A stretch of 64,000 nt of DNA. Source: Chloroflexota bacterium. GTDB lineage: Bacteria > Chloroflexota > Dehalococcoidia > SM23-28-2 > RBG-16-64-32. The stretch is from contig DAINDD010000005.1 of the NCBI GenBank assembly GCA_036732045.1, positions 11,710 to 75,709 of the forward strand. The letters run 5' to 3'. The position numbers were made by a program, and so were the translations under genes. Every line of letters begins with the position of its first letter. Position 1 is the stretch's first letter. The notes under the pieces are model-generated. The model was not told the origin of the DNA and did no database searches. It saw only the letters and a program-made list of their open reading frames with translations. This document shows positions 42,032-53,601 of this stretch, piece after piece.

Positions 42032-43462
42032 TCAATCGTCTGCGATGAAGACTGTCTTGTATTCGGAGTAGTCGACCAGCGCGGCCGTCCCGTGCTCGCG
42101 GCCGATGCCGGACTGCTTGACGCCGCCGAACGGCGCCTCGATGTGCACGGAGCTCGATGAGTTGATCGAGAGCACACCGGTCTCGACGCTGCGAGCCACC
42201 CGCAACGCTCGCCCGACATCGCGCGTCCAGATTGAGCCGGAGAGGCCGTAGATCGAGTCGTTGGCCAGCCGGACGGCCTCATCCTCGCCCTCGAAGGCGA
42301 CGATTGCGACGACCGGGCCGAAGATCTCCTCGCGCATGATGCGCATCTCCGGCCGCACGTCCACGAAGACGGTCGGCGTCAGGTAGTTCCCCGGCGAGTC
42401 GGGCCGCTCGCCTCCGCAGACTCGCCGCGCACCCTCCGACTCACCGATCGCGACGTAGGCCTCGACCTTCTCGCGGTGTTCGGGCGTGATCAGCGGGCCG
42501 ACCTCCGTCGACTCATCCGCGGTGTCGCCGATGCGGAGTGACTTGGCGCGGGCGGCGAAGCGCTCGACGAACTCGTCGAAGACCGCGCGCTCGACCAGCA
42601 CGCGGCTGCGAGCGCAGCAGTCCTGGCCGGCGTTATCGTAGACTGCCCAGACGGACGACTCGACGCACTTCTCCAGTTCGGCGTCGGCGAAGACGATCGA
42701 CGCCGACTTGCCGCCGAGCTCCAGCGAGACGCGCTTGATGGCCGCGCCGGCTGCTTGCATGATGTGCGCGCCGACTTCTGTGGACCCGGTGAACGATATC
42801 TTGCGCACGAGCGGGTGCTGGATCAGCGCCTCGCCAGCCTCCGAGCCCTTGCCCGGCACGATGTTGAGGACGCCCGGCGGCAGGCCTGCCTCTGTGGCGA
42901 GCTCAGCCATAGCCAGCGCGGTGAGCGGTGTCACCTCCGCCGGCTTGACGACGACGGAGTTGCCGATCGCCAACGCCGGCGCGACTTTCCAGGAGAGGAT
43001 CGCCATCGGGAAGTTCCACGGTGTGATCGCCGCACAGACACCGATCGGCTCGCGGAAGGTGAGGAGGGTGCCAGCGGCCTGGCAGGGCACGGTCTCGCCG
43101 CCGAACTTGTCGACGGCGCCCGCGTAGTAGTCGAAGCTCGCCGCGACCGCGCCGATCTCCCCGCGCGCGGCGCTGATGGGCTTGCCCGCGTTCTGCGACT
43201 CCAACTGCGCGAGCCGCTCCGTGTCGCGCCGGACGAGATCAGCGATGCGGCGTAGCACGTCTCGCCGTTCACGGACGGGCGCGCGACGCCAGACGCCGGC
43301 CTGGTAACGCTCGTGCGCCAGCGCGACTGCGCCATCAACGTCAGCGGCCGAGGCCCGCGCGACCCGCGCGATCTCGCTGCCGTTGGCCGGGTTGCGGACC
43401 GAGGTCTCGCTGCCGCCGGACTCGACGTGCCCGCCGCCGATGTAGAGGCCGTGGGTGGTCAC
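42032..43462 (-). CDS. aldehyde dehydrogenase family protein
   Basis: 476 aa; ELGGKSA and catalytic Cys region GQDCCA. Confidence 0.9.
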   Translation of the reverse strand: MTTHGLYIGGGHVESGGSETSVRNPANGSEIARVARASAADVDGAVALAHERYQAGVWRRAPVRERRDVLRRIADLVRRDTERLAQLESQNAGKPISAARGEIGAVAASFDYYAGAVDKFGGETVPCQAAGTLLTFREPIGVCAAITPWNFPMAILSWKVAPALAIGNSVVVKPAEVTPLTALAMAELATEAGLPPGVLNIVPGKGSEAGEALIQHPLVRKISFTGSTEVGAHIMQAAGAAIKRVSLELGGKSASIVFADAELEKCVESSVWAVYDNAGQDCCARSRVLVERAVFDEFVERFAARAKSLRIGDTADESTEVGPLITPEHREKVEAYVAIGESEGARRVCGGERPDSPGNYLTPTVFVDVRPEMRIMREEIFGPVVAIVAFEGEDEAVRLANDSIYGLSGSIWTRDVGRALRVARSVETGVLSINSSSSVHIEAPFGGVKQSGIGREHGTAALVDYSEYKTVFIADD

Positions 43463-43875
43463 GCCGTGCCGCCTCCCGTGCGAAGGACCTGCTCTGTCTC
43501 CTTGTGTACCTGGAGCACCTTGGCATAACCGTCTTCCATCTGTTTAACGATCGACTTCACCGTTGATCGCTTCGATATTGCGTAGAACCCTGACATCGTC
43601 CACGGCCTTTCCATCATCACGTGCTTAGCAAGATCGTTCAGACGGTCTAGCAGCGCGAAATGTGTCGAGCAACGCTCGTTCCATGCTTCTAGAACCAAGG
43701 TCAGAGCCGGGACCGCTCTGTCGCGATCTAGATCTATCCCTTCGCGATAATCGGCCTCGGTTGGTTGCCGTATTTGGAAATCACATTCCTTTGCTTCCAA
43801 GGTGACGTTAGACAGCGCCATCATGCCCCAGTCCAAGACGACCCTATCGCCAAGCAATTCTTGAATGGGCAGCAA
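43459..43875 (-). CDS. hypothetical protein (lower-GC patch)
   Basis: 138 aa; stop overlaps the ALDH start; no recognisable motifs. Confidence 0.4.
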   Translation of the reverse strand: MLPIQELLGDRVVLDWGMMALSNVTLEAKECDFQIRQPTEADYREGIDLDRDRAVPALTLVLEAWNERCSTHFALLDRLNDLAKHVMMERPWTMSGFYAISKRSTVKSIVKQMEDGYAKVLQVHKETEQVLRTGGGTA

Positions 43876-44221
43876 AACAATCTATCGGTAGGGACTCGAA
43901 CTGAGAGCCGAGAAATTCCGGAATCTGCTTTGGCGCAAGCACGCTATCGTGCGCGATTTGTCTTACAGTTCGAATCATGAAACTAGCTATTTGGTAATTC
44001 TGCAGGTGGACACTGAGCAGAATGCTAAGTGAGTCGTGAAACTTCTGAATTCCGTCTGTCAAGAACCGTTGAGTAGCCAGCTCCGACTGCCTTTGTTGGC
44101 GATATACCCATAGACCCAGGAGTACGGCGATCATCGGGCCGAGCAAAATAGCACCGGCAGCAAGAAGGTCTGCATCAATTCCGAACAGCGACCGTGTCGG
44201 CAGATCGGTTTGCGGATTCAT
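43844..44221 (-). CDS. hypothetical membrane protein (lower-GC patch)
   Basis: 125 aa with one N-terminal TM (LLAAGAILLGPMIAVLLGLWVY); overlaps the upstream SDR stop. Confidence 0.4.
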   Translation of the reverse strand: MNPQTDLPTRSLFGIDADLLAAGAILLGPMIAVLLGLWVYRQQRQSELATQRFLTDGIQKFHDSLSILLSVHLQNYQIASFMIRTVRQIAHDSVLAPKQIPEFLGSQFESLPIDCFAAHSRIAWR

Positions 44222-44994
44222 TCCGGCGTCACGTAAGCGGCCGTGATGCCGCCGTCGATGATGAACTGCGCGCCGGTCATGAACGACGACTCGTCCGAGG
44301 CGAGGTAGAGCGCGGCCTTCGCGATCTCCTTCGCCTCTCCGAAGCGGCCGATCGGGATGTGTACGAGGCGACGCTGCAGCTTCTCCTCCGTGTTGAGGAA
44401 CTTCATCAGCAGCTCGGTCTTTAGCGGGCCCGGACAGAGCGCGTTGATGCGAATGTTCTCGCGGGCGTGGACGATCGCCAGCTCGCGCGTCATCGAGAGG
44501 ACTGCGCCCTTGGAGGCGGTGTAGGCGACCTGCGCCGTCGCCGAGCCCATTACGGCGACGATGGAGGCGGTGTTGATGATCGAGCCGCCGCCGGCGCGAC
44601 GGATGGCGGGGATGCCGTACTTGCAGCCGAGGAAGACGCCCTTGGCGTTGATCTCCATCGTCAGGTCCCAGACGGCCTCCGTGGTGTTCGTGGCCTCGTC
44701 GTCGTCGGAATGCATGATGCCGGCGTTGTTGAACAGCACGTGGAGCTTGCCGTACTCCGACTCTGCGAAGTCGATCATCGCCTTGCAGTCCTCGGCCTTG
44801 GTGACGTCGGCGTGGAAGGCTGTCGCCTTGCCGTCGGCCCGCTCGACCATGACGACGGTCTGGCGAGCGGTGTTCTCGTCCAGGTCAACGGCGACCACCT
44901 CGGCACCCTCCGTCGCGAAGAGAATGGCGCTTTCCCGGCCGATGCCGCTGCCGGCGCCGGTGATCAGCGCGACTTTTCCGTCCAATCGTCCCAT
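44218..44994 (-). CDS. SDR family oxidoreductase
   Basis: GKVALITGAGSGIGRESA. Confidence 0.85.
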   Translation of the reverse strand: MGRLDGKVALITGAGSGIGRESAILFATEGAEVVAVDLDENTARQTVVMVERADGKATAFHADVTKAEDCKAMIDFAESEYGKLHVLFNNAGIMHSDDDEATNTTEAVWDLTMEINAKGVFLGCKYGIPAIRRAGGGSIINTASIVAVMGSATAQVAYTASKGAVLSMTRELAIVHARENIRINALCPGPLKTELLMKFLNTEEKLQRRLVHIPIGRFGEAKEIAKAALYLASDESSFMTGAQFIIDGGITAAYVTPE

Positions 44995-46534: not shown

Positions 46535-47323
46535 TCAATAGGAGCGGCACACCGGCCATGGGGAGAGCGCGTCCCCGGCGGTCAGGGCTGGTAAGTACTC
46601 TTGCTGGTAGGCGACCGTAGCGTTCGTCAGGGGATCGTCCCAACCAGGGAACTGGTAGCTGATCTGGAACAGGCCCCAGTAGCCCGCCGGGTTGACTGAG
46701 GCCGGGTTCAATCCTGATTCGCATGCAGCTATCCGTACCATTTGATCGCAGGGCCAGGACAGCGAGCAGATCGCGGCGACCACGTCGCTGGATGCCGGCG
46801 GCACGTACGGCGTGGCAGCCGGCGGTGGCGCAGCAGTGATCGCCGCCGGAGTGGGTTGCGCGACCGGCACGACGTCTGAGGCAGGGTCCGGTAGTGGAAG
46901 TTCAGTGGCCGGAGCGGGTGGGAGCGCGAAAGCGGCTGCCGGCACCGGGATCGACAGCACCTGGCCGATCTGCAGGAAGTCGTCGACGCTGACTCCGTTC
47001 GCGGCGGCGATGTCGAAGGGCGTTACGCCGAACCAACCGGCGAGCTCTAACAGCGTCTCTCCGGGGCGGACTTCCATAGTCGGCAGTGGTTCTGGCGTGG
47101 GCGTCGGCAACGGGCTCGGCGTTGGCTGGGCTGTCGGAGGGACGGTGGTCTCGGCTTGAGGCAACTCAAGGTTACGCAGCGACTCAGCGCGGTGCGGGGA
47201 GAGGGCGGCGGTCGTGAGCGCGGCCGCAACCAGGGTCTGGGGCGAATCATGCCCGCCGTCCTGCTTTGCCGGAGCTGACAGAGCGGGAACGATCAGCACG
47301 GCTGCCAGCGCGAGGCAAATCAC
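46535..47323 (-). CDS. secreted LysM domain protein with Rpf-like transglycosylase-like C-terminal domain
   Basis: GTG start, signal peptide, PT-rich region, LysM (RPGETLLELAGWFGVTPFDIAAANGVSVDDFLQIGQVLSIP), and C-terminal ACESGLNP...GYWGLFQI resembling the Rpf/transglycosylase-like motif. Confidence 0.7.
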   Translation of the reverse strand: MICLALAAVLIVPALSAPAKQDGGHDSPQTLVAAALTTAALSPHRAESLRNLELPQAETTVPPTAQPTPSPLPTPTPEPLPTMEVRPGETLLELAGWFGVTPFDIAAANGVSVDDFLQIGQVLSIPVPAAAFALPPAPATELPLPDPASDVVPVAQPTPAAITAAPPPAATPYVPPASSDVVAAICSLSWPCDQMVRIAACESGLNPASVNPAGYWGLFQISYQFPGWDDPLTNATVAYQQEYLPALTAGDALSPWPVCRSY

Positions 47324-47453
47324 GAGTACGTGTCTAACTATCAGTCATTCCCCCCTGCTATTCCGTGGAGTCCTGTACGTCCCGCTGCGGAAGCCCAGCG
47401 CTCGGACGCAGGCACCGGGAACAAGTCTGCCAGCATTGGCCGAGTTTGACAAA

Positions 47454-47496
47454 TCGCTAACGGCGAACGGGAGCGGGGGCGAATTAGCGTTGCCTC
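47454..47496 (+). repeat. direct repeat copy A (left boundary of lower-GC insert)
   Basis: TCGCTAACGGCGAACGGGAGCGGGGGCGAATTAGCGTTGCCTC; ~93% identical to copy B at 50441..50481. Confidence 0.7.
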
Positions 47497-47872
47497 GTCG
47501 ATCCGTTAGGATGATGGTAAGTGCGCCGGGAGAGGCGGAAGGGAAAGTGAGTAAAACTGGGATTTCGTTTGGTAATTTCGTGTTTTTAGGAGTACGGAGT
47601 AATTCCGGAAGTAGACCGTATGGCGACGTCGATTTATATCTGGAAGGCGAGGATGGTCTTCAGCGCTTGACCGATTATAATTGCACTTTTGTGCTCAAAA
47701 GCTGGAGATTATGTTTAGTGAATTCCTGCTTGCCAGCGCGTCACCCAGTGCTTCTTGACGTTCCGTTATGGTGGCCCGATTGTAGGGGCCTCAATCGCCC
47801 TTCGCCAAGGTTGCACCAACTCTTCGCAAAGGTAGAATCAACAAGCCGGACACCACGTTTCGAGGGGGAACT

Positions 47873-50118
47873 ATGACCATTACTGTTTTCAAACAAGCCA
47901 ACTACGACGTCAATGGCCTCGTGACGTTGATCGGAATGGGGCAAATCGGACTTCCCGACATCCAGCGACCGTTCGTCTGGAACAACATCAAGGTCCGGGA
48001 TCTGTTCGATTCGATGTACAAGGGTTATCCGGTCGGCTATCTGCTCCTTTGGCAGAACGCGCTCACGGAGGACGCGAAGCAAATCGGTGTGGACGAAAGA
48101 CAGCGCGTGCCCAGCCTTTTGATCGTGGACGGGCAACAGCGCTTGACTTCGCTCTACGCGGTGGTGAGGGGAATCAAAGTCCTCCGCGAGAACTTCACGG
48201 CGGAGCAGATTGGCATCGCGTTCAACCCGCTTCTCGAGAAGTTTGAGGTAGTCGACGCCGCTATTCGGCGAGACAAGTCGTACATCCCCAACATCTCTGC
48301 TGCGTGGAGTCCGAAACCGGGCCTAGTTCCTTTCGTCAACGAGTACATCGCAGCGCTGAAGGCGACACGCGAAGTTTCCGAGGAAGATGAGCAGCGGATC
48401 AATGACTCCATCACCCGCCTTCACGGGCTGCAAAACTTCCCGTTCACTGCGCTCGAATTGGCATCCAATATCAGCGAAGAGGACGTGGCGGATGTATTCG
48501 TCCGCATCAACAGCAAAGGGACTCCGCTCAACCAGGCGGACTTCCTGCTTACTTTGATGTCAGTGTTCTGGGATGAAGGCCGGGCGGGGCTTGAAACATT
48601 CTGCCGGCAAGCGAAAGCGCCCGGCACGGGACCGTCGCCTTACACGCACTTCGTTACTCCTGCACCCGACCAGCTACTCCGCGTGGCTGTCTCGTTGGGG
48701 TTCAAGCGCGCGCGACTAAGCAATGTGTACTCGATCCTTCGCGGCAAGGATCTCGAAACCGGAGAGTTCACGGCTGAGAGACGGGACCAGCAGTTTGCAG
48801 TGCTGAAACAAGCGCAGACGCGGGTCCTAAATCTGACGTACTGGCACGACTTCTTCAAGGCGATCATGCTATCGGGACACCGGAGTTCAAAAACGATCAG
48901 CTCGCAAACGGGGTTGATCTACGCTTACGCGTTTTATCTGATAGGACGATGCGAGTACGGCGTGGAAGAGCACCGGCTCCGGCGAGCGATCGCACGCTGG
49001 TTCTTCATGTCGAGCTTGACGGCGCGATACTCGAGTTCGCCAGAGTCCGCGATGGAATTTGATCTGGCGCGCTTGCGGGAAGTGAAGGACGCCGAAGCAT
49101 TCGTCCGGGCCCTCGACCGCGTGTGCGACGAATCTCTTACCAGCGACTTCTGGTCGATCACGCTGCCAAACGAATTGGCGACCTCGTCTCCAAGGAGCCC
49201 GTCGCTGTTCGCGTTCTACGCAGCGTTAGTGCTGCTGGACGCTAAAGTGCTCTTCTCACCCTCAAAGTTAGTGACCTGTTGGACCCCGCTTTGCATGGCA
49301 ACCGCGCAGCGATCGAGCGTCACCACCTGTTCCCGAAGGGATACCTCAAGAGCATCGGCATAACCGAGCTTCGCGAGACCAACCAGATTGCCAACTTCGC
49401 ACTCGTAGAGTGGGGGGACAACGCCGACGTGTCGGATAGGGCACCGGCGGACTACCTACCCGAGTACCGCGACAAACTTGGCCCGAAAGAGCTTCAAAAG
49501 ATGTACGGCTGGCATGGGCTTCCCGACGGTTGGGAAACCATGGCGTACCCGGACTTTCTGATGAGGCGCCGTGACCTTATCGCCGGGATCATCAAGGAAG
49601 GTTTCGCGCGGCTTAGCGGAGAAGTACCAACAGACGGTCAAATTATTCTAAGCCTGGACGAGATTGTCGGGAACGGTGAAACAAGTCGCGTGGAGTTCAA
49701 GGCGACTCTCCGGACAAATCTGCACACCCAACAAATCGACCCTAAGATGGAACTGGCAACCTTGAAAACCCTGGCTGCCTTTCTGAACACTAGCGGGGGA
49801 ACCTTGATTATCGGTGTGTCCGACCACGGTGCCCCCCTTGGGCTAAACGCTGACGGATTTCAAAACGAGGACAAGATGCAACTGCATCTGGCAAACCTAA
49901 TCAACGGCCGGATCGGGCCCCACTACATGATGTACATGCATCCGCGATTCGAGGACTATCAAGGCAAACGAGTAATCGCAGTGGAATGTTCGCCAAGTAA
50001 GTCGGCCGTATTCGTCAAGGATGGCAACGCAGACCGGTTCTACATTCGCACCGGTGTTTCGACTTCTGAACTGACTAACGCCCAAACGCAAGAGTTCATC
50101 AAGCAACGGTTCAGCTAG
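47873..50118 (+). pseudogene. GmrSD-like type IV restriction-family protein (DUF262 + DUF1524) fused to C-terminal AlbA_2/Schlafen-like domain; disrupted by a frameshift near 49245-49280
   Basis: N-terminal DUF262/ParB-like DGQQR motif (LLIVDGQQRLTSLYAV). After the frame change, DUF1524 His-Me finger motifs (AAIERHHLFPKGYL ... NQIANFALVEWGDNADVS), then AlbA_2 motifs (GETSRVEFKATL ... LAAFLNTSGGTLIIGVSD ... RFYIRTGVSTSEL). Listed as two ORFs (47873..49363 frame 2; 49279..50118 frame 1). Confidence 0.7.
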
Positions 50119-50392
50119 CGCGGCAGACATCGATCAGAATGATATGAGCTAGGTCAATCGTGGAACCGCGAAGCGCCTGTCGCTGCTAGTCCGCCGTCGA
50201 GCAAACGTCCAGGCCGGGTCCCTCTTCGACTCGGCTACCCTCCGGGGTGGGCAAGCAGGGCTGGCGCCCTACCCCACCAAAGGGCGCGGGAACCGCGCGA
50301 CGCGGCCAGGGCGCTGCGAGCCGGAGTGCGGCAAGCCAGCGCGCCTACCAGCCGCCGGAGCGCTAGGGGCGCTGAGCGTCGGTCATCGAGCG

Positions 50393-50440
50393 CACGGTGC
50401 TGATCGCCACCCACGACGACTCCATCGCCCGCCAGGCAGT
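50393..50440 (+). other. duplicated 3'-end fragment of the ABC ATPase gene (copy of 52671..52718)
   Basis: GCACGGTGCTGATCGCCACCCACGACGACTCCATCGCCCGCCAGGCAG matches the authentic gene end (…RTVLIATHDDSIARQA…) with 2 mismatches, then diverges directly into repeat copy B. Confidence 0.7.
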
Positions 50441-50481
50441 CGCCAACGGCGAACGGGAGCGGGCGAATTAGCGTCGCCTCA
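50441..50481 (+). repeat. direct repeat copy B (right boundary of lower-GC insert)
   Basis: TCGCCAACGGCGAACGGGAGCGGGCGAATTAGCGTCGCCTC. Confidence 0.7.
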
Positions 50482-50562
50482 CCCCTCTCTAACGTTCTCT
50501 TAAGCTGCGCCTCCTAGCCTGTCATCAGCCCCATACTCTACGAGGAGAGGTGCCATATAGAT

Positions 50563-52029
50563 ATGAGAACGATGAAACGCAGCGTTAGAGCGCTGATCCG
50601 AAGTCCCTTGCGTGCGGCGCTGATGGTGGGCGTCCTCGCCGTCAGCATCGGGCTGGCACTGATCATGATCACGGTGAACGGTGCTTTCGCGCAGCGCCTG
50701 GACGACGTGCGGGCCCAGGTCGGCACGGAGATCACGGTACGGCCGGCGGGCAGCTTCGGCGGCGGCTTCTTCGGCGGCGACAATGGCGGCGGCGCAAGCC
50801 CCACGGCAACCCCCGCGCCCGGCAGCAGCACCGCCGCGACAGCGGATCCGATCATCACGGATGCCGACCTGCAACAGTTGACCACCATCCCGCACGTGGC
50901 GAGCATCACTCGCGTGATCACGACGCGGTACAGCGGCACCAACCTCGTGTCCGGCATTACTTTTGGCGGAGGAGCGAACGCGACACCGCGGCCGGGTCGG
51001 GGCAACGGCGGCGGCGGCCGTGGCGGCATCCTGGTGACGGGTACGGACGACCCGAACACGCTGGCGTCAGTCGGTGTGCAGGACGTCACGCTGTCCTCCG
51101 GTCGCTCTTTCACGGCCGCCGATGAGGGGACCGACGTTGCGGTCGTCGGGCAGACGCTGGCCACGGCGAACAACTTGAGCGTCGGCAGCACGTTCGTCCT
51201 CGATCCAACGAGCACGACGACAACCAGCACCACGACGAACAGCACTACCGCCGCGACAACGTCCGGCACCACGATGACGGTGATCGGCATCTACACAACC
51301 GGCACGCAGTTCGGCGACAACTCAATGGCGCTGCCGATCGACACAGCTCGCACCATCTTTAGCCGGTCGAACGAGGTTGACCAGGCGATCGTCAAGGCCG
51401 ACAGCGTCGACAACGTCGACGCTGTCAGCACGGCGATCAAGTCCAGCCTTGGCACCGACAAGGCTGACGTCACGACCGCGCTGTCCACATTCTCCACGAT
51501 CAGCTCGCCGCTCTCCGATGCGCAGAGCAGCAGCCAGATCGGGATGATCGTAGCGCTAATCGCGTCCGCAGCGATCATCCTCTTCTCGATCGGGCTTGTG
51601 GCACGGCAGCGGGTCCGCGAGATCGGGATCATGAAGGCGGTCGGCGCTTCCAGCTGGAACGTGATCGGTCAGTTCGGGATCGAAACGGGCATCATGAGCA
51701 TCGGCGCCGCACTTCTGGGTGCTTTGGCAACGTTCCCGCTCGCGCAGACCGTCGCCAACGGGCTCGTTTCCAGCCCTTCGACGGCTGTTGGAGGCCGCGG
51801 CGGCGCGGCCGCCGGAGTGGCGGGTCGCGGCGGCGGAAGATTCTTCGCGGCGGCCGGAAACGCAGCGGGCGGAGCGAACGGTCTGCTCGGCAGCGTCAAC
51901 GTTGCGGTTTCGCCGGAGGTCTTCCTTTACGCGCTGGCGATTGCTGTCGGCCTCGCGCTGGTTGCGACAATCGTGCCTGTCTGGTATGTCGGTCGCGTGC
52001 GGCCAGCGGAGGTGCTGCGCCATGAGTGA
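50563..52029 (+). CDS. ABC transporter permease, MacB/FtsX family
   Basis: 488 aa; N-terminal TM, large Thr/Gly-rich periplasmic domain, C-terminal FtsX 3-TM bundle (IGIMKAVGASSWNVIGQF). Confidence 0.8.
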   Translation: MRTMKRSVRALIRSPLRAALMVGVLAVSIGLALIMITVNGAFAQRLDDVRAQVGTEITVRPAGSFGGGFFGGDNGGGASPTATPAPGSSTAATADPIITDADLQQLTTIPHVASITRVITTRYSGTNLVSGITFGGGANATPRPGRGNGGGGRGGILVTGTDDPNTLASVGVQDVTLSSGRSFTAADEGTDVAVVGQTLATANNLSVGSTFVLDPTSTTTTSTTTNSTTAATTSGTTMTVIGIYTTGTQFGDNSMALPIDTARTIFSRSNEVDQAIVKADSVDNVDAVSTAIKSSLGTDKADVTTALSTFSTISSPLSDAQSSSQIGMIVALIASAAIILFSIGLVARQRVREIGIMKAVGASSWNVIGQFGIETGIMSIGAALLGALATFPLAQTVANGLVSSPSTAVGGRGGAAAGVAGRGGGRFFAAAGNAAGGANGLLGSVNVAVSPEVFLYALAIAVGLALVATIVPVWYVGRVRPAEVLRHE

Positions 52030-52768
52030 TCAGATTACGAACGAAGTAACCGCAGGCCCGCCGACGGTCAACGGCACGACCTTCACGGCGGTGGTCGAGA
52101 ACCTGAAGAAACACTTCAAGAGCGGGCCCGCCGAAGTGCCGGCGGTGGACGGCGTCAGCTTCAAGCTCCCGGCGGGCGAACTGATCGTCCTGCGCGGGCC
52201 CAGCGGCTGTGGCAAGAGCACGCTGCTCAACTTGCTCGGCGCGCTGGACAAGCCGGACTCTGGCACGGTGATGGTGGGTGGGGTCGACGTGGGCAAGCTC
52301 AGCGGCGGCGCGGAGGTGGACTATCGCAGGCGGAAGGTTGGCTTCGTGTTCCAGATGTTCAACCTGATGCCGCAGCTCTCGGCCCTCGAAAACGTAATGC
52401 TGCCGCTGGAGCTGGCCGGCGGCAAGTCCACGAAAACGATGCGCGCGCGCGCCGAGGCACTTCTCGGCCGGGTCGGGCTGGCAACGGACCGCTGGGTCAG
52501 GCGCCCGGCGAAGCTGTCCGGCGGCGAGCAGCAGCGTGTCGCCATAGCCCGCGCGCTGGCCAACGATTGCCCGCTGATTCTGGCCGACGAGCCGACGGCG
52601 AACCTGGACTCGAAGACCGGTGCTGTGATCGTGGAGCTGTTGCGAAGCCTGGCGGCCGAGAACCGCACGGTGCTGATCGCCACTCACGATGACTCCATCG
52701 CCCGCCAGGCAGATGAGGTGATGGACATGCGGGACGGCCGCTTCGTGGGGGCGGGCGCGCCGGTATAG
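52022..52768 (+). CDS. ABC transporter ATP-binding protein (MacB/LolD-type)
   Basis: Start MSDQITNEV (ATG 52022) overlaps the permease stop; Walker [10 protein letters not shown], signature [15 protein letters not shown], Walker B LILADEPT. Confidence 0.9.
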   Translation: MSDQITNEVTAGPPTVNGTTFTAVVENLKKHFKSGPAEVPAVDGVSFKLPAGELIVLRGPSGCGKSTLLNLLGALDKPDSGTVMVGGVDVGKLSGGAEVDYRRRKVGFVFQMFNLMPQLSALENVMLPLELAGGKSTKTMRARAEALLGRVGLATDRWVRRPAKLSGGEQQRVAIARALANDCPLILADEPTANLDSKTGAVIVELLRSLAAENRTVLIATHDDSIARQADEVMDMRDGRFVGAGAPV

Positions 52769-52929
52769 ACGAATCTCACAATCGAACGAATCACCGGTGT
52801 TTCCGCCGGCGATTCCTGTTTCGCACCGGCGAGTATTGTCGGGTGCCAAAATTGCATCCGTCATGTTCCGCATCATGAGGCCAATCGTGCGCATTCATAG
52901 TGTAAGCCACCAAGGGCTGGCCCACCGAC

Positions 52930-53250
52930 GATCCGTCCAGTCGCTAACAATCCGAGGCCAATGACTGTCCCGTTTGCAGGCGTCAGTTGCAGCGGGCGAT
53001 GGGGCCGCGCGCGATTATAGTGCTCGACGTACTCCCGCAGCACTGCCCGCAGATGGTGCTCGTTAAGTGATGATCAGGAGGTCCAAACACTCTCTGCGCA
53101 GTGTGCCGACGACGCACTCGCCGATGGCGTTCGCCTTCGGCGAGTGCACGGGGTGAGGATTGTCTCGATGCCGATCTGAGCGGCCCGTGGATGAAATTGC
53201 CCTCATAGCACAGACTCAAGTTTCAGACTCAGACGTAATTTTGGCACCCA
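52930..53250 (-). pseudogene. decayed IS (DDE integrase-core, IS481/IS3-like) transposase remnant
   Basis: Minus-strand frames give ...[58 protein letters not shown]. This resembles the conserved rve C-terminus (…P.sNG..ER…L.RE…Y…YN..RPH..L…P) but is broken by in-frame stops and frame changes. Recognition is from memory of family consensus. Confidence 0.45.
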
Positions 53251-53450
53251 CAGGCTCTCGAACTGCTTTACCACGGCGGCGAGGTTCGTGTGACCTTTGG
53301 CATCTCTTCCCAGCGCATGATCCCGCTCCCTTGCGCCGCGCGTCCAATGGGTGTGAGGTGCGCGTGACGCGGCTGTTGACCGGACTGTGACGCTTGGAAA
53401 GAGTCCTCTTAACTAGTATCTTTTTGCCGGGCCAACTGACCGTGTACGGG

Positions 53451-53527
53451 TTTGGTCGGGGCGCTCGGATTCGAACCGAGGACCTCCTGAACCCCATTCA
53501 GGTGCGCTACCGGGCTACGCCACGCCC
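53451..53527 (-). tRNA. tRNA-Pro (anticodon GGG)
   Basis: CGGGGCG-TG-GCGT..GCGC-A-CCTGA-ATGGGGT-TCAGG-AGGTC-CTCGG-TTCGAAT-CCGAG-CGCCCCG-A-CCA. Canonical cloverleaf, U33, G37, encoded CCA. Confidence 0.85.
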
Positions 53528-53601
53528 CGACCGGAGGACTCGGATATCGTACCACGCCCGGAAATCGGTCGGCCAGCAGATCGGGTCGGCTGCGCGCGCG
53601 G

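What the first reader, a model, noticed from the sequence alone, without database searches (positions are those of the whole stretch)
47454..50481. ~3-kb lower-GC insert bounded by 42-bp direct repeats carrying a GmrSD-like (DUF262-DUF1524) gene fused to an AlbA_2/Schlafen-like domain
Copies A (47454-47496) and B (50441-50481) are ~93% identical direct repeats. The DNA between them is ~55% GC in a ~67% genome. Its only gene reads as a type IV (modification-dependent) restriction endonuclease of the GmrSD family. It has the DGQQR motif and DUF1524 His-Me finger motifs (IERHHLFPKGYL, NQIANFALVEW), extended by a C-terminal ~150-aa AlbA_2 DNA-binding domain (EFK ... LAAFLNTSGGTLIIGVSD ... FYIRTGVSTSEL) of the kind found in Schlafen proteins. 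I do not recall this three-domain fusion as a characterised architecture. The boundary repeats suggest site-specific insertion or excision of a defence cassette.
Basis: partly seen in the sequence, partly recalled or inferred. Interest (0 to 1): 0.75.

Follow-up and report, generated by a model that had tools for sequence, protein, structure and literature searches.

The report
Broken GmrSD–Schlafen defence gene islet
A small foreign DNA islet in a Dehalococcoidia chromosome carries one anti-phage gene of an already described, very widespread family (GmrSD-like protein fused to a Schlafen nuclease). The gene is broken by a one-base deletion, and the flanking repeats look like scars of a local duplication rather than mobile-element ends, so the finding is largely ordinary.

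Summary
The repeats, the lower GC and the protein motifs are real, but three parts of the reading fail.

1. **The gene is not one ORF.** A 1-nt deletion at 49262-49269 splits it into 47873-49363 and a second frame ending at 50118. The same break is on 13 public contigs; the ten compared are 99.6-100% identical to the window.

2. **The architecture is neither rare nor uncharacterised.** The repaired 748-aa protein aligns end to end with thousands of intact ~750-aa homologues (62-72% identity).
   - GmrSD proteins with C-terminal AlbA_2 were noted in 2017.
   - A DUF262-Schlafen fusion (EcoSlfn7) was shown to protect E. coli from phages in 2026.
   - The "AlbA_2" domain keeps the Schlafen catalytic E-x4-E-x-K motif, so it is probably a nuclease, not merely a DNA binder.

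3. **The repeats are not supported as att sites.**
   - Copy B directly abuts a 49-bp copy of the ABC ATPase gene 2.2 kb downstream, as a tandem-duplication junction would.
   - There is no recombinase gene.
   - A related contig (L036) keeps copy A plus 118 bp and then carries different DNA.

Verdict: a recently inactivated member of a known defence family in a variable chromosomal spot. Low interest.

The parts
46535..47323 (-). LysM-domain gene, left neighbour. It is absent between GS and FtsX in the relatives L011, L012 and L014.
   Evidence: Pfam LysM 3.1e-08; tblastn synteny; GC3 75%
47454..47496 (.). Direct repeat copy A (43 nt)
   Evidence: the orthologous copy in L036 is 1 nt different from window copy B
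47497..47614 (.). Low-GC segment shared with related contig L036. The L036/window alignment over 47287-47610 is 88% identical. Beyond about 47614 the two lineages carry unrelated DNA.
47615..47872 (+). Cargo-specific upstream region of the defence gene (~50% GC). It is overlapped by the 220-aa ORF 47214-47876, which has no family hit and is probably spurious.
47873..49267 (+). Defence gene, part 1 (residues 1-465): the DUF262/GmrSD_N domain (47942-48550) with RDLFDS and DGQQR motifs, plus the helical linker. As it stands the ORF runs out of frame to the stop at 49361-49363.
49262..49269 (+). Frameshift site TCAAAGTT. One base is missing relative to all intact homologues (VLFSPSK|VSDLLDP).
   Evidence: gap-free alignment of the repaired protein; same site in ten public contigs
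49267..50118 (+). Defence gene, part 2 (residues 466-748), in the -1 frame relative to part 1
49315..49422 (+). Divergent GmrSD_C / His-Me-finger-like motif region (E482-R-H-H-L-F-P ... N504..N508 ... N517)
49678..50070 (+). Schlafen/AlbA_2 domain. The catalytic-type motif E603-TSRV-E608-F-K610 lies at 49678-49701.
50119..50390 (.). GC-rich (~70%) spacer of unknown origin. It shows no similarity to the ATPase or FtsX genes or to any fetched locus.
50391..50439 (+). 49-bp copy (47/49 identical) of an internal piece of the ABC ATPase gene. It ends exactly where copy B begins.
50440..50480 (.). Direct repeat copy B (41 nt). Its right half belongs to the native FtsX upstream region, which is conserved in relatives.
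50481..50571 (+). Native FtsX promoter/leader region, which can be aligned by eye with L011, L012 and L014
50572..52029 (+). FtsX-type ABC permease gene, right neighbour
   Evidence: Pfam FtsX 4.1e-12; gene start as called in L001
52022..52768 (+). ABC transporter ATPase gene. Positions 52664-52712 are the source of the 49-bp fragment.
   Evidence: Pfam ABC_tran 3.3e-35

Best explanation
The segment is a small, compositionally foreign islet in a variable spot of a Dehalococcoidia (Chloroflexota) chromosome. It lies between a LysM gene and an FtsX/ABC-ATPase operon.

**The gene.** Its one gene belongs to a widespread, highly conserved ~750-aa single-gene defence family made of four parts:
- a BrxU-like GmrSD core, starting with an N-terminal DUF262 ParB/Srx-type NTPase domain carrying RDLFDS and DGQQR motifs;
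- a helical linker;
- a divergent GmrSD_C His-Me-finger-like domain;
- a C-terminal Schlafen (PF04326) nuclease domain with an intact E-x4-E-x-K active-site motif.

**How intact members probably work (inferred).** The NTP-dependent GmrSD-like part recognises invading phage DNA. The protein then attacks through the His-Me DNA nuclease, the Schlafen RNase (tRNase) or both. This corresponds to the DUF262-Slfn class whose E. coli member EcoSlfn7 protects against phages.

**State in this genome (frameshift shown, loss of function inferred).** A 1-nt deletion shifts the frame after residue 465. The sensor/NTPase half is therefore uncoupled from both nuclease modules. Because the first frame's stop lies beyond the ERHH motif, re-initiation could not rescue the His-Me domain. 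The gene is most likely a recently inactivated pseudogene.

**The repeats (inferred).** The 41-43-bp direct repeats are most likely a scar of a local rearrangement:
1. A tandem duplication of the unit 50440-52712 (FtsX promoter, FtsX, 5' part of the ATPase gene) created the junction "ATPase position 52712 | repeat", now seen at 50439|50440.
2. The interior of the first copy was later replaced by foreign DNA.

They are not recombination sites of a mobile cassette.
For: **Gene identity**
- PF03235 scores 1.5e-29 and PF04326 scores 2.1e-19.
- The best PADLOC model is HEC-05, which is BrxU (bioRxiv 10.1101/2024.01.29.577857).
- The family profile hits BrxU 7P9K at 4.7e-14, or 2.1e-22 with a broader profile, with colinear stretches along the whole chain.
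- An AF2 model of residues 389-748 has pLDDT 83.
- E603/E608/K610 are invariant in the family and align with E-x4-E-x-K of SLFN14. The motif and the EcoSlfn7 defence result come from PMC13056530.

**Family size and context**
- More than 8000 full-length homologues were found.
- 799 50%-identity representatives score E<=1e-30. The core (residues 1-585) occurs alone, with other C-terminal domains, or with Slfn.
- Intact homologues are single genes. Two of the three looked up (P0017, P0068) sit among other defence genes; P0001 lies among housekeeping genes.

**Frameshift**
- The two frames are shown, and the repaired protein aligns without gaps.
- The exact 496-aa ORF is on 13 contigs. The ten fetched, from independent NCBI, JGI and ENA assemblies, carry the identical site.
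- Only 4 of 223 highly conserved positions deviate, within the range of intact homologues. The break is therefore recent.

**Foreign origin and variable spot**
- GC and GC3 are low.
- Relatives L011, L012 and L014 have GS and FtsX only 130-170 bp apart.
- L036 shares 47287-47614 and then carries other DNA.

**Repeat origin**
- 50391-50439 matches 52664-52712 at 47/49 and ends exactly at the start of copy B.
- The right half of copy B can be lined up by eye with the FtsX upstream region of relatives.
- Similarity stops sharply outside these pieces.
- No recombinase domain was found in the ORFs tested, and no tRNA lies at a boundary.
Against: - No empty site and no intermediate (duplicated FtsX operon) was found, so the duplication-then-replacement order is inferred from a single junction.
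- PF07510 is not detected in this protein. Only 2 of 10 distant relatives give sub-threshold hits. The usual (D/E)H dyad reads HH, with a Glu two residues upstream.
- I could not obtain the EcoSlfn7 sequence, so orthology with the tested protein is unverified. A distant blastn search of E. coli genomes found nothing.
- The lack of extra damage in the gene is also compatible with continued function as two products.
- L006 has ten variants in the flanks but none in the island. This could mean the island moves between strains by some route.
Confidence: 0.6

Rival explanations
1. The segment is a mobile defence cassette that inserts and excises site-specifically, and the 42-bp repeats are its attL/attR sites or a target-site duplication.
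For: - The direct repeats bracket lower-GC DNA that holds a defence gene.
- The locus differs between lineages.
- The island is identical in L006 while its flanks carry 10 variants.
Against: - There is no integrase, transposase or other recombinase. The only other long ORF has no family hit.
- No tRNA lies at a boundary.
- The DNA just inside copy B is a 49-bp copy of the host's own ATPase gene, preceded by 70%-GC DNA.
- L036 keeps copy A plus 118 bp before its content diverges.
- The repeat core has no other true copy in the window, and only one orthologous copy in the metagenome collection.
- Homologues sit at unrelated sites, and nothing resembling this island's non-coding flanks was found at their loci.
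Confidence: 0.1
2. The interrupted gene is still functional. Either it works as two polypeptides (a GmrS-like N-terminal product plus a nuclease-bearing C-terminal product), or occasional -1 ribosomal slippage on A_AAG makes some full-length protein.
For: - Both halves are otherwise undamaged and as conserved as intact homologues.
- The break lies between modules.
- The shift site is A_AAG. From my own recollection, this is the slippery motif used by IS3-family elements.
- GmrSD was first reported as two subunits (PMC4619093).
Against: - None of the homologues examined is split there.
- There is no slippery heptamer.
- I see no Shine-Dalgarno-like stimulator upstream of the site (my reading of the sequence).
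- The downstream RNA folds no better than shuffled sequence (z -0.43).
- The first frame's stop (49361-49363) lies past the ERHH motif. The candidate internal start TTG 49291 has no obvious ribosome-binding site (sequence).
- The original "two-gene" GmrSD was later found to be one protein.
Confidence: 0.12
3. The frameshift is a sequencing or assembly error, and the organism has an intact gene.
For: It is a single-base difference next to a short A run.
Against: The identical site is present in ten contigs from independent assemblies of different samples. No intact allele more than 72% identical exists among 5.8 billion protein clusters.
Confidence: 0.03

Closest known systems
Prokaryotic Schlafen, DUF262-Slfn fusion class (EcoSlfn7 of E. 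coli UC4224; Perez Taboada et al., Nat Microbiol 2026, PMC13056530)
   Same: - A DUF262 domain is fused to a PF04326 Schlafen domain carrying the E-x4-(E/D)-x-K motif.
- It is a single-gene system.
- Homologues are often found in defence islands.
   Different: - The copy in this window is frameshifted.
- Sequence relatedness to EcoSlfn7 itself could not be checked.
- The mechanism of EcoSlfn7 was not dissected in that paper; tRNA cleavage was shown for RorSlfn5.
- This family also keeps a GmrSD_C-like His-Me region, which the DUF262-Slfn label does not mention.
BrxU (= PADLOC HEC-05), a GmrSD-family type IV restriction enzyme (PDB 7P9K/7P9M)
   Same: - It is the best PDB sequence hit and the best PADLOC model.
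- RDLFDS and DGQQR motifs are present.
- The nuclease-motif region can be aligned: N..N-x2-L-x-E...N.
   Different: - There is an extra ~150-aa Schlafen domain.
- PF07510 is not detectable.
- HHLFP stands in place of DHIYP.
- Only the N-terminal part aligns significantly by sequence.
GmrSD (Eco94GmrSD, EcoCT GmrSD) and SspE
   Same: - The layout DUF262 - linker - His-Me nuclease is shared.
- AlbA_2 is listed as a usual C-terminal addition in the DUF1524 group (PMC5714182).
   Different: - Sequence similarity is weak: the PADLOC SspE match is about E 3e-5 and N-terminal only.
- Substrate specificity (glc-hmC DNA, phosphorothioate sensing) cannot be inferred.
Human SLFN11/12/13/14 and the SAMD9 AlbA_2 domain
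   Different: This protein has a single lobe of ~150 aa rather than a two-lobed N-domain with a helicase. The partner domains are bacterial.

Membership tests
GmrSD family (type IV restriction enzymes) | N-terminal DUF262/GmrSD_N domain (PF03235) | tested here: met
   E 1.5e-29, 104 bits against a cut-off of 33.2, residues 24-226
GmrSD family (type IV restriction enzymes) | DGQQR nucleotide-hydrolysis motif, plus the BrxU-type RLFDS motif | tested here: met
   VDGQQR at residues 85-90 and RDLFDS at 42-47, largely invariant in the family.
GmrSD family (type IV restriction enzymes) | C-terminal DUF1524/GmrSD_C His-Me finger domain (PF07510) with a (D/E)H...N...N motif | tested here: inconclusive
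   - There is no PF07510 hit at E<=10.
- 2 of 10 distant relatives give sub-threshold hits at the same position.
- The dyad reads HH (484-485), with E482 two residues upstream.
GmrSD family (type IV restriction enzymes) | Modification-dependent DNA cleavage | not testable with these tools
   Needs biochemistry.
Prokaryotic Schlafen (pSlfn) defence proteins, DUF262-Slfn class | PF04326 domain longer than 100 aa | tested here: met
Prokaryotic Schlafen (pSlfn) defence proteins, DUF262-Slfn class | Catalytic E-x4-(E/D)-x-K motif | tested here: met
   E603-TSRV-E608-F-K610 is invariant among the homologues and aligns with TESTHVEFK of SLFN14. The motif is described in PMC13056530.
Prokaryotic Schlafen (pSlfn) defence proteins, DUF262-Slfn class | DUF262 and Slfn in one polypeptide | tested here: not met
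   This is met in all homologues. In this window the two domains lie in different frames.
Prokaryotic Schlafen (pSlfn) defence proteins, DUF262-Slfn class | Sequence homology to the tested protein EcoSlfn7; phage defence; tRNA cleavage | not tested
   The supplementary tables with the sequence are not held. A distant blastn search of E. coli genomes found nothing.
Site-specific integrative island (att-flanked) | Integrase or recombinase gene in or beside the element | tested here: not met
   The ORF list and Pfam scans of the segment and its neighbours show none.
Site-specific integrative island (att-flanked) | The repeats coincide with the limits of the foreign or variable DNA; an empty site holds one copy | tested here: not met
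   - L036 shares 118 bp beyond copy A.
- A fragment of a host gene abuts copy B.
- No empty site was found.
Dispersed intergenic repeat family | Many copies elsewhere | tested here: not met
   There are two copies in 64 kb. Of 39 metagenome contigs holding the 19-mer core, only one (L036) is homologous, and it lies at the same locus.
Programmed -1 ribosomal frameshift | Slippery heptamer, stimulatory structure, conservation in homologues | tested here: not met
   Only A_AAG is present. The downstream fold has z -0.43. All homologues are single ORFs.

The most novel reading that the evidence does not exclude
The frameshift is not a death blow but a throttle. Rare -1 slippage on A_AAG, or the two separate products acting together, would keep a potentially self-toxic protein at very low dose. 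That protein would carry two nucleases: a His-Me DNA nuclease and a Schlafen tRNase. The allele's presence in all 13 contigs and its undamaged motifs would then reflect selection rather than recent decay.
Probability: 0.06. Interest if true: 0.45.

Novelty: new member of a known kind. Interest (0 to 1): 0.2.

Why it matters
It matters little for discovery. The domain fusion that made the finding look new was catalogued in 2017, and a DUF262-Schlafen fusion was experimentally linked to phage defence in 2026. The copy here is broken.

Three modest points remain useful:
- **Family structure.** The DUF262-Slfn family retains a divergent GmrSD_C-like His-Me region that Pfam misses. These proteins may therefore carry two nuclease modules, which bears on how EcoSlfn7-type systems work.
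- **Family spread.** The family is unusually conserved (62-72% identity) across MAGs that the source records label Ardenticatenaceae, Thermoleophilia and Deltaproteobacteria. The window itself is from a Dehalococcoidia MAG.
- **A caution on repeats.** Direct repeats around a low-GC gene can be scars of local duplication and replacement at a variable chromosomal spot, not att sites.

Tried and rejected
- **AF2 of the whole 748-aa protein** with a 12-sequence alignment gave pLDDT 46 and was unusable. It was replaced by the C-terminal 360 aa with 121 sequences.
- **NCBIfam** gave no hit.
- **Rfam** on 47200-50700 gave no hit.
- **Promoter and terminator scan** gave nothing informative on the + strand.
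- **Folding of the repeats and of the RNA after the shift site** showed no unusual stability.
- **Exact look-ups of the FtsX and GS proteins** found nothing. The ABC ATPase look-up found only short contigs starting inside FtsX, so no empty site was seen.
- **Genome scan with FtsX** found only distant relatives (50-73% identity) that lack both LysM and the island.
- **Metagenome scan with the repeat core** gave 38 chance hits and one true relative.
- **Test of the GC-rich spacer 50119-50390 as a decayed ATPase remnant** showed no similarity.
- **Idea that the L036 cargo is a decayed restriction gene** got no Pfam support and was dropped.
- **Search for the E. coli homologue** by distant blastn found nothing. 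The paper's supplements are not held.
Full report
**Observation**

The two repeat copies exist: 47454-47496 (43 nt) and 50440-50480 (41 nt). They differ by two mismatches and a 2-nt indel. Each half of the repeat occurs only at these two sites in the 64-kb window, and no shuffle gave two matches.

The DNA between them is 56.9% GC against 64.5% for the window, but it is not uniform:
- The stretch up to the end of the gene is 55.3% GC.
- The last 320 bp (50119-50439) are 69.8% GC.
- GC3 of the gene is 66-72%, against 82-91% for most of the surrounding genes.

**The gene is interrupted**

The ORF list shows 47873-49363 (496 aa) and 49279-50118 in another frame. The DUF262 part is in the first frame. 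IERHHLFPKGYL, NQIANFALVEW and the AlbA_2 part are in the second.

Joining the frames at TCAAAGTT (49262-49269) gives a 748-aa protein. It aligns without a gap across the junction (VLFSPSK|VSDLLDP) to intact ~750-aa homologues. One base is therefore missing.

The break is real:
- The exact 496-aa ORF is on 13 public contigs from NCBI, JGI and ENA assemblies.
- The ten fetched are 99.6-100% identical to the window and carry the same site.
- NCBI names the ORF a DUF262 protein of a Dehalococcoidia MAG.
- No intact allele closer than 72% identity was found.

The break looks recent. The repaired protein deviates at only 4 of 223 positions that are at least 97% conserved in 120 homologues. Intact homologues have a median of 2 and a 95th percentile of 5.

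I found no sign of programmed frameshifting. There is no slippery heptamer, the downstream RNA folds no better than shuffles (z -0.43), and all homologues are single ORFs.

**What the protein is**

Sequence-family evidence:
- Pfam supports GmrSD_N (1.5e-29) and SLFN_AlbA_2 (2.1e-19), but not GmrSD_C/PF07510 even at E<=10.
- The best PADLOC model is HEC-05, which the authors equate with BrxU.
- A family profile finds BrxU (7P9K) at 4.7e-14, and at 2.1e-22 with a broader profile. Weak colinear stretches reach the C-terminal nuclease region, where N504, N508, L511, E513 and N517 line up with BrxU residues.

Structural evidence:
- An AF2 model of residues 389-748 with 121 homologues reached pLDDT 83.
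- Two of ten distant ~590-aa relatives give sub-threshold PF07510 hits at the same position.

I therefore read the middle domain as a divergent GmrSD_C. Its dyad reads HH instead of (D/E)H.

The C-terminal domain carries E603-x4-E608-x-K610. This motif is invariant in the family and aligns with the catalytic-site peptide of SLFN14. It is the E-x4-(E/D)-x-K motif that Perez Taboada et al. describe as catalytic. The domain is thus predicted to be a nuclease, not only a nucleic-acid binder.

**How common and how known**

The architecture is abundant:
- The homology search returned 7999 significant hits, and the top 120 are all ~750 aa with PF03235 plus PF04326.
- Against 1.84 billion 50%-identity representatives, 799 score E<=1e-30.
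- The core (residues 1-585) occurs alone (~590 aa), with N-terminal extensions, with other C-terminal domains, or with Slfn at 31-63% identity. One example of another C-terminal domain is RAMA on a Euzebya plasmid.

Intact homologues are solitary genes. Two of the three looked up sit among type III CRISPR, ResIII/methylase, TIR-STAND and similar genes.

The literature already covers the fusion:
- Jablonska et al. [quoted passage not shown]
- Perez Taboada et al. 2026 list DUF262 fusions as 1.8% of 5,930 prokaryotic Schlafens. They show that EcoSlfn7 reduces T7 plating about 540-fold.

I could not obtain the EcoSlfn7 sequence, so orthology is unverified.

**The surroundings and the repeats**

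The neighbours are chromosomal genes. On one side lie an aldehyde dehydrogenase, an SDR, glutamine synthetase (GS) and LysM. On the other lie an FtsX permease, an ABC ATPase, DUF5656 and Mfd.

In the relatives L011, L012 and L014, the GS and FtsX genes are divergent and only 130-170 bp apart. Neither LysM nor the defence gene is present. By eye, their FtsX upstream region lines up with the window from the right half of copy B onward. Copy B therefore sits in its native context on the right.

The decisive detail is on the left of copy B. Positions 50391-50439 are a 47/49 copy of 52664-52712 inside the ABC ATPase gene, and the similarity stops exactly where copy B starts. A tandem duplication of the unit 50440-52712 would create precisely this junction. 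In that reading, copy A is the start of the first unit, whose interior was later replaced by foreign DNA. No similarity survives beyond these pieces.

The only true relative found with the repeat core is L036, and it adds three points:
- It is 88% identical to 47287-47610, and the shared stretch ends near 47614. This covers the LysM 5' end, copy A and a further 118 bp. It then carries unrelated DNA.
- The variable DNA therefore does not begin at the repeat.
- Its repeat copy is one base from window copy B, and its similarity to the right flank of B runs about 10 nt further.

There is no recombinase gene and no tRNA at a boundary. The repeat is not a dispersed family.

**Conclusion**

The finding is a recently broken member of a known, widespread GmrSD-Schlafen defence family. 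It lies in a small foreign islet at a variable chromosomal spot. The flanking repeats are best explained as a duplication scar.

The gene identity and the frameshift are shown directly. The pseudogene status, the mechanism of intact family members and the duplication-then-replacement history are inferred.

Noticed in passing
window 43470-44230: This is a second low-GC islet (~50% GC) between the aldehyde dehydrogenase and SDR genes. It holds two 125-aa minus-strand ORFs (43459-43836 and 43844-44221) with no significant Pfam hit. GC3 of the second is 51%, against ~90% for its neighbours.
   Followed up: partly
L006 (ENA ERZ27248665), compared with window 47382-47418 and 50793-50823: This contig has 6 and 4 variants in the two flanks but none in the 3.4-kb island between them. 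The left-flank variants resemble L036. Either the island is shared by strains with diverged flanks, or the contig ends are chimeric.
   Followed up: partly
window 50699-51089 (5' part of the FtsX gene; GGC-rich stretch at 50748-50800): The six public contigs that reach this side end in this stretch, and contigs holding the ABC ATPase gene start inside FtsX. The cause could be strain variation or a coverage drop in the Gly-rich GGC repeat region.
   Followed up: no
window 47497-47614 and L036 222-326: A low-GC ~118-nt segment just right of copy A is conserved (~87%) between two lineages that carry different downstream DNA. It has no Rfam hit and no clear ORF conservation, and its function is unknown. 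It could be a shared promoter/leader or the end of an older insert.
   Followed up: partly
window 46535-47323: The LysM-domain gene is absent from the GS-FtsX interval of the relatives L011, L012 and L014. Its GC3 is 75%, lower than most of its neighbours. It may itself be a lineage-specific acquisition.
   Followed up: partly
L065 2974-5106 (Euzebya pacifica plasmid NZ_CP031166.1): This homologue of the 585-aa core (38% identity) carries a RAMA domain where this family has Schlafen. It lies near a phosphorothioated-DNA-binding restriction endonuclease gene. It illustrates swapping of C-terminal modules on one GmrSD-like core.
   Followed up: partly
window 52750-53530: A lower-GC stretch (~59%) lies downstream of the ABC ATPase gene and ends at a tRNA-Pro(GGG) gene (53453-53529, minus strand).
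   Followed up: no
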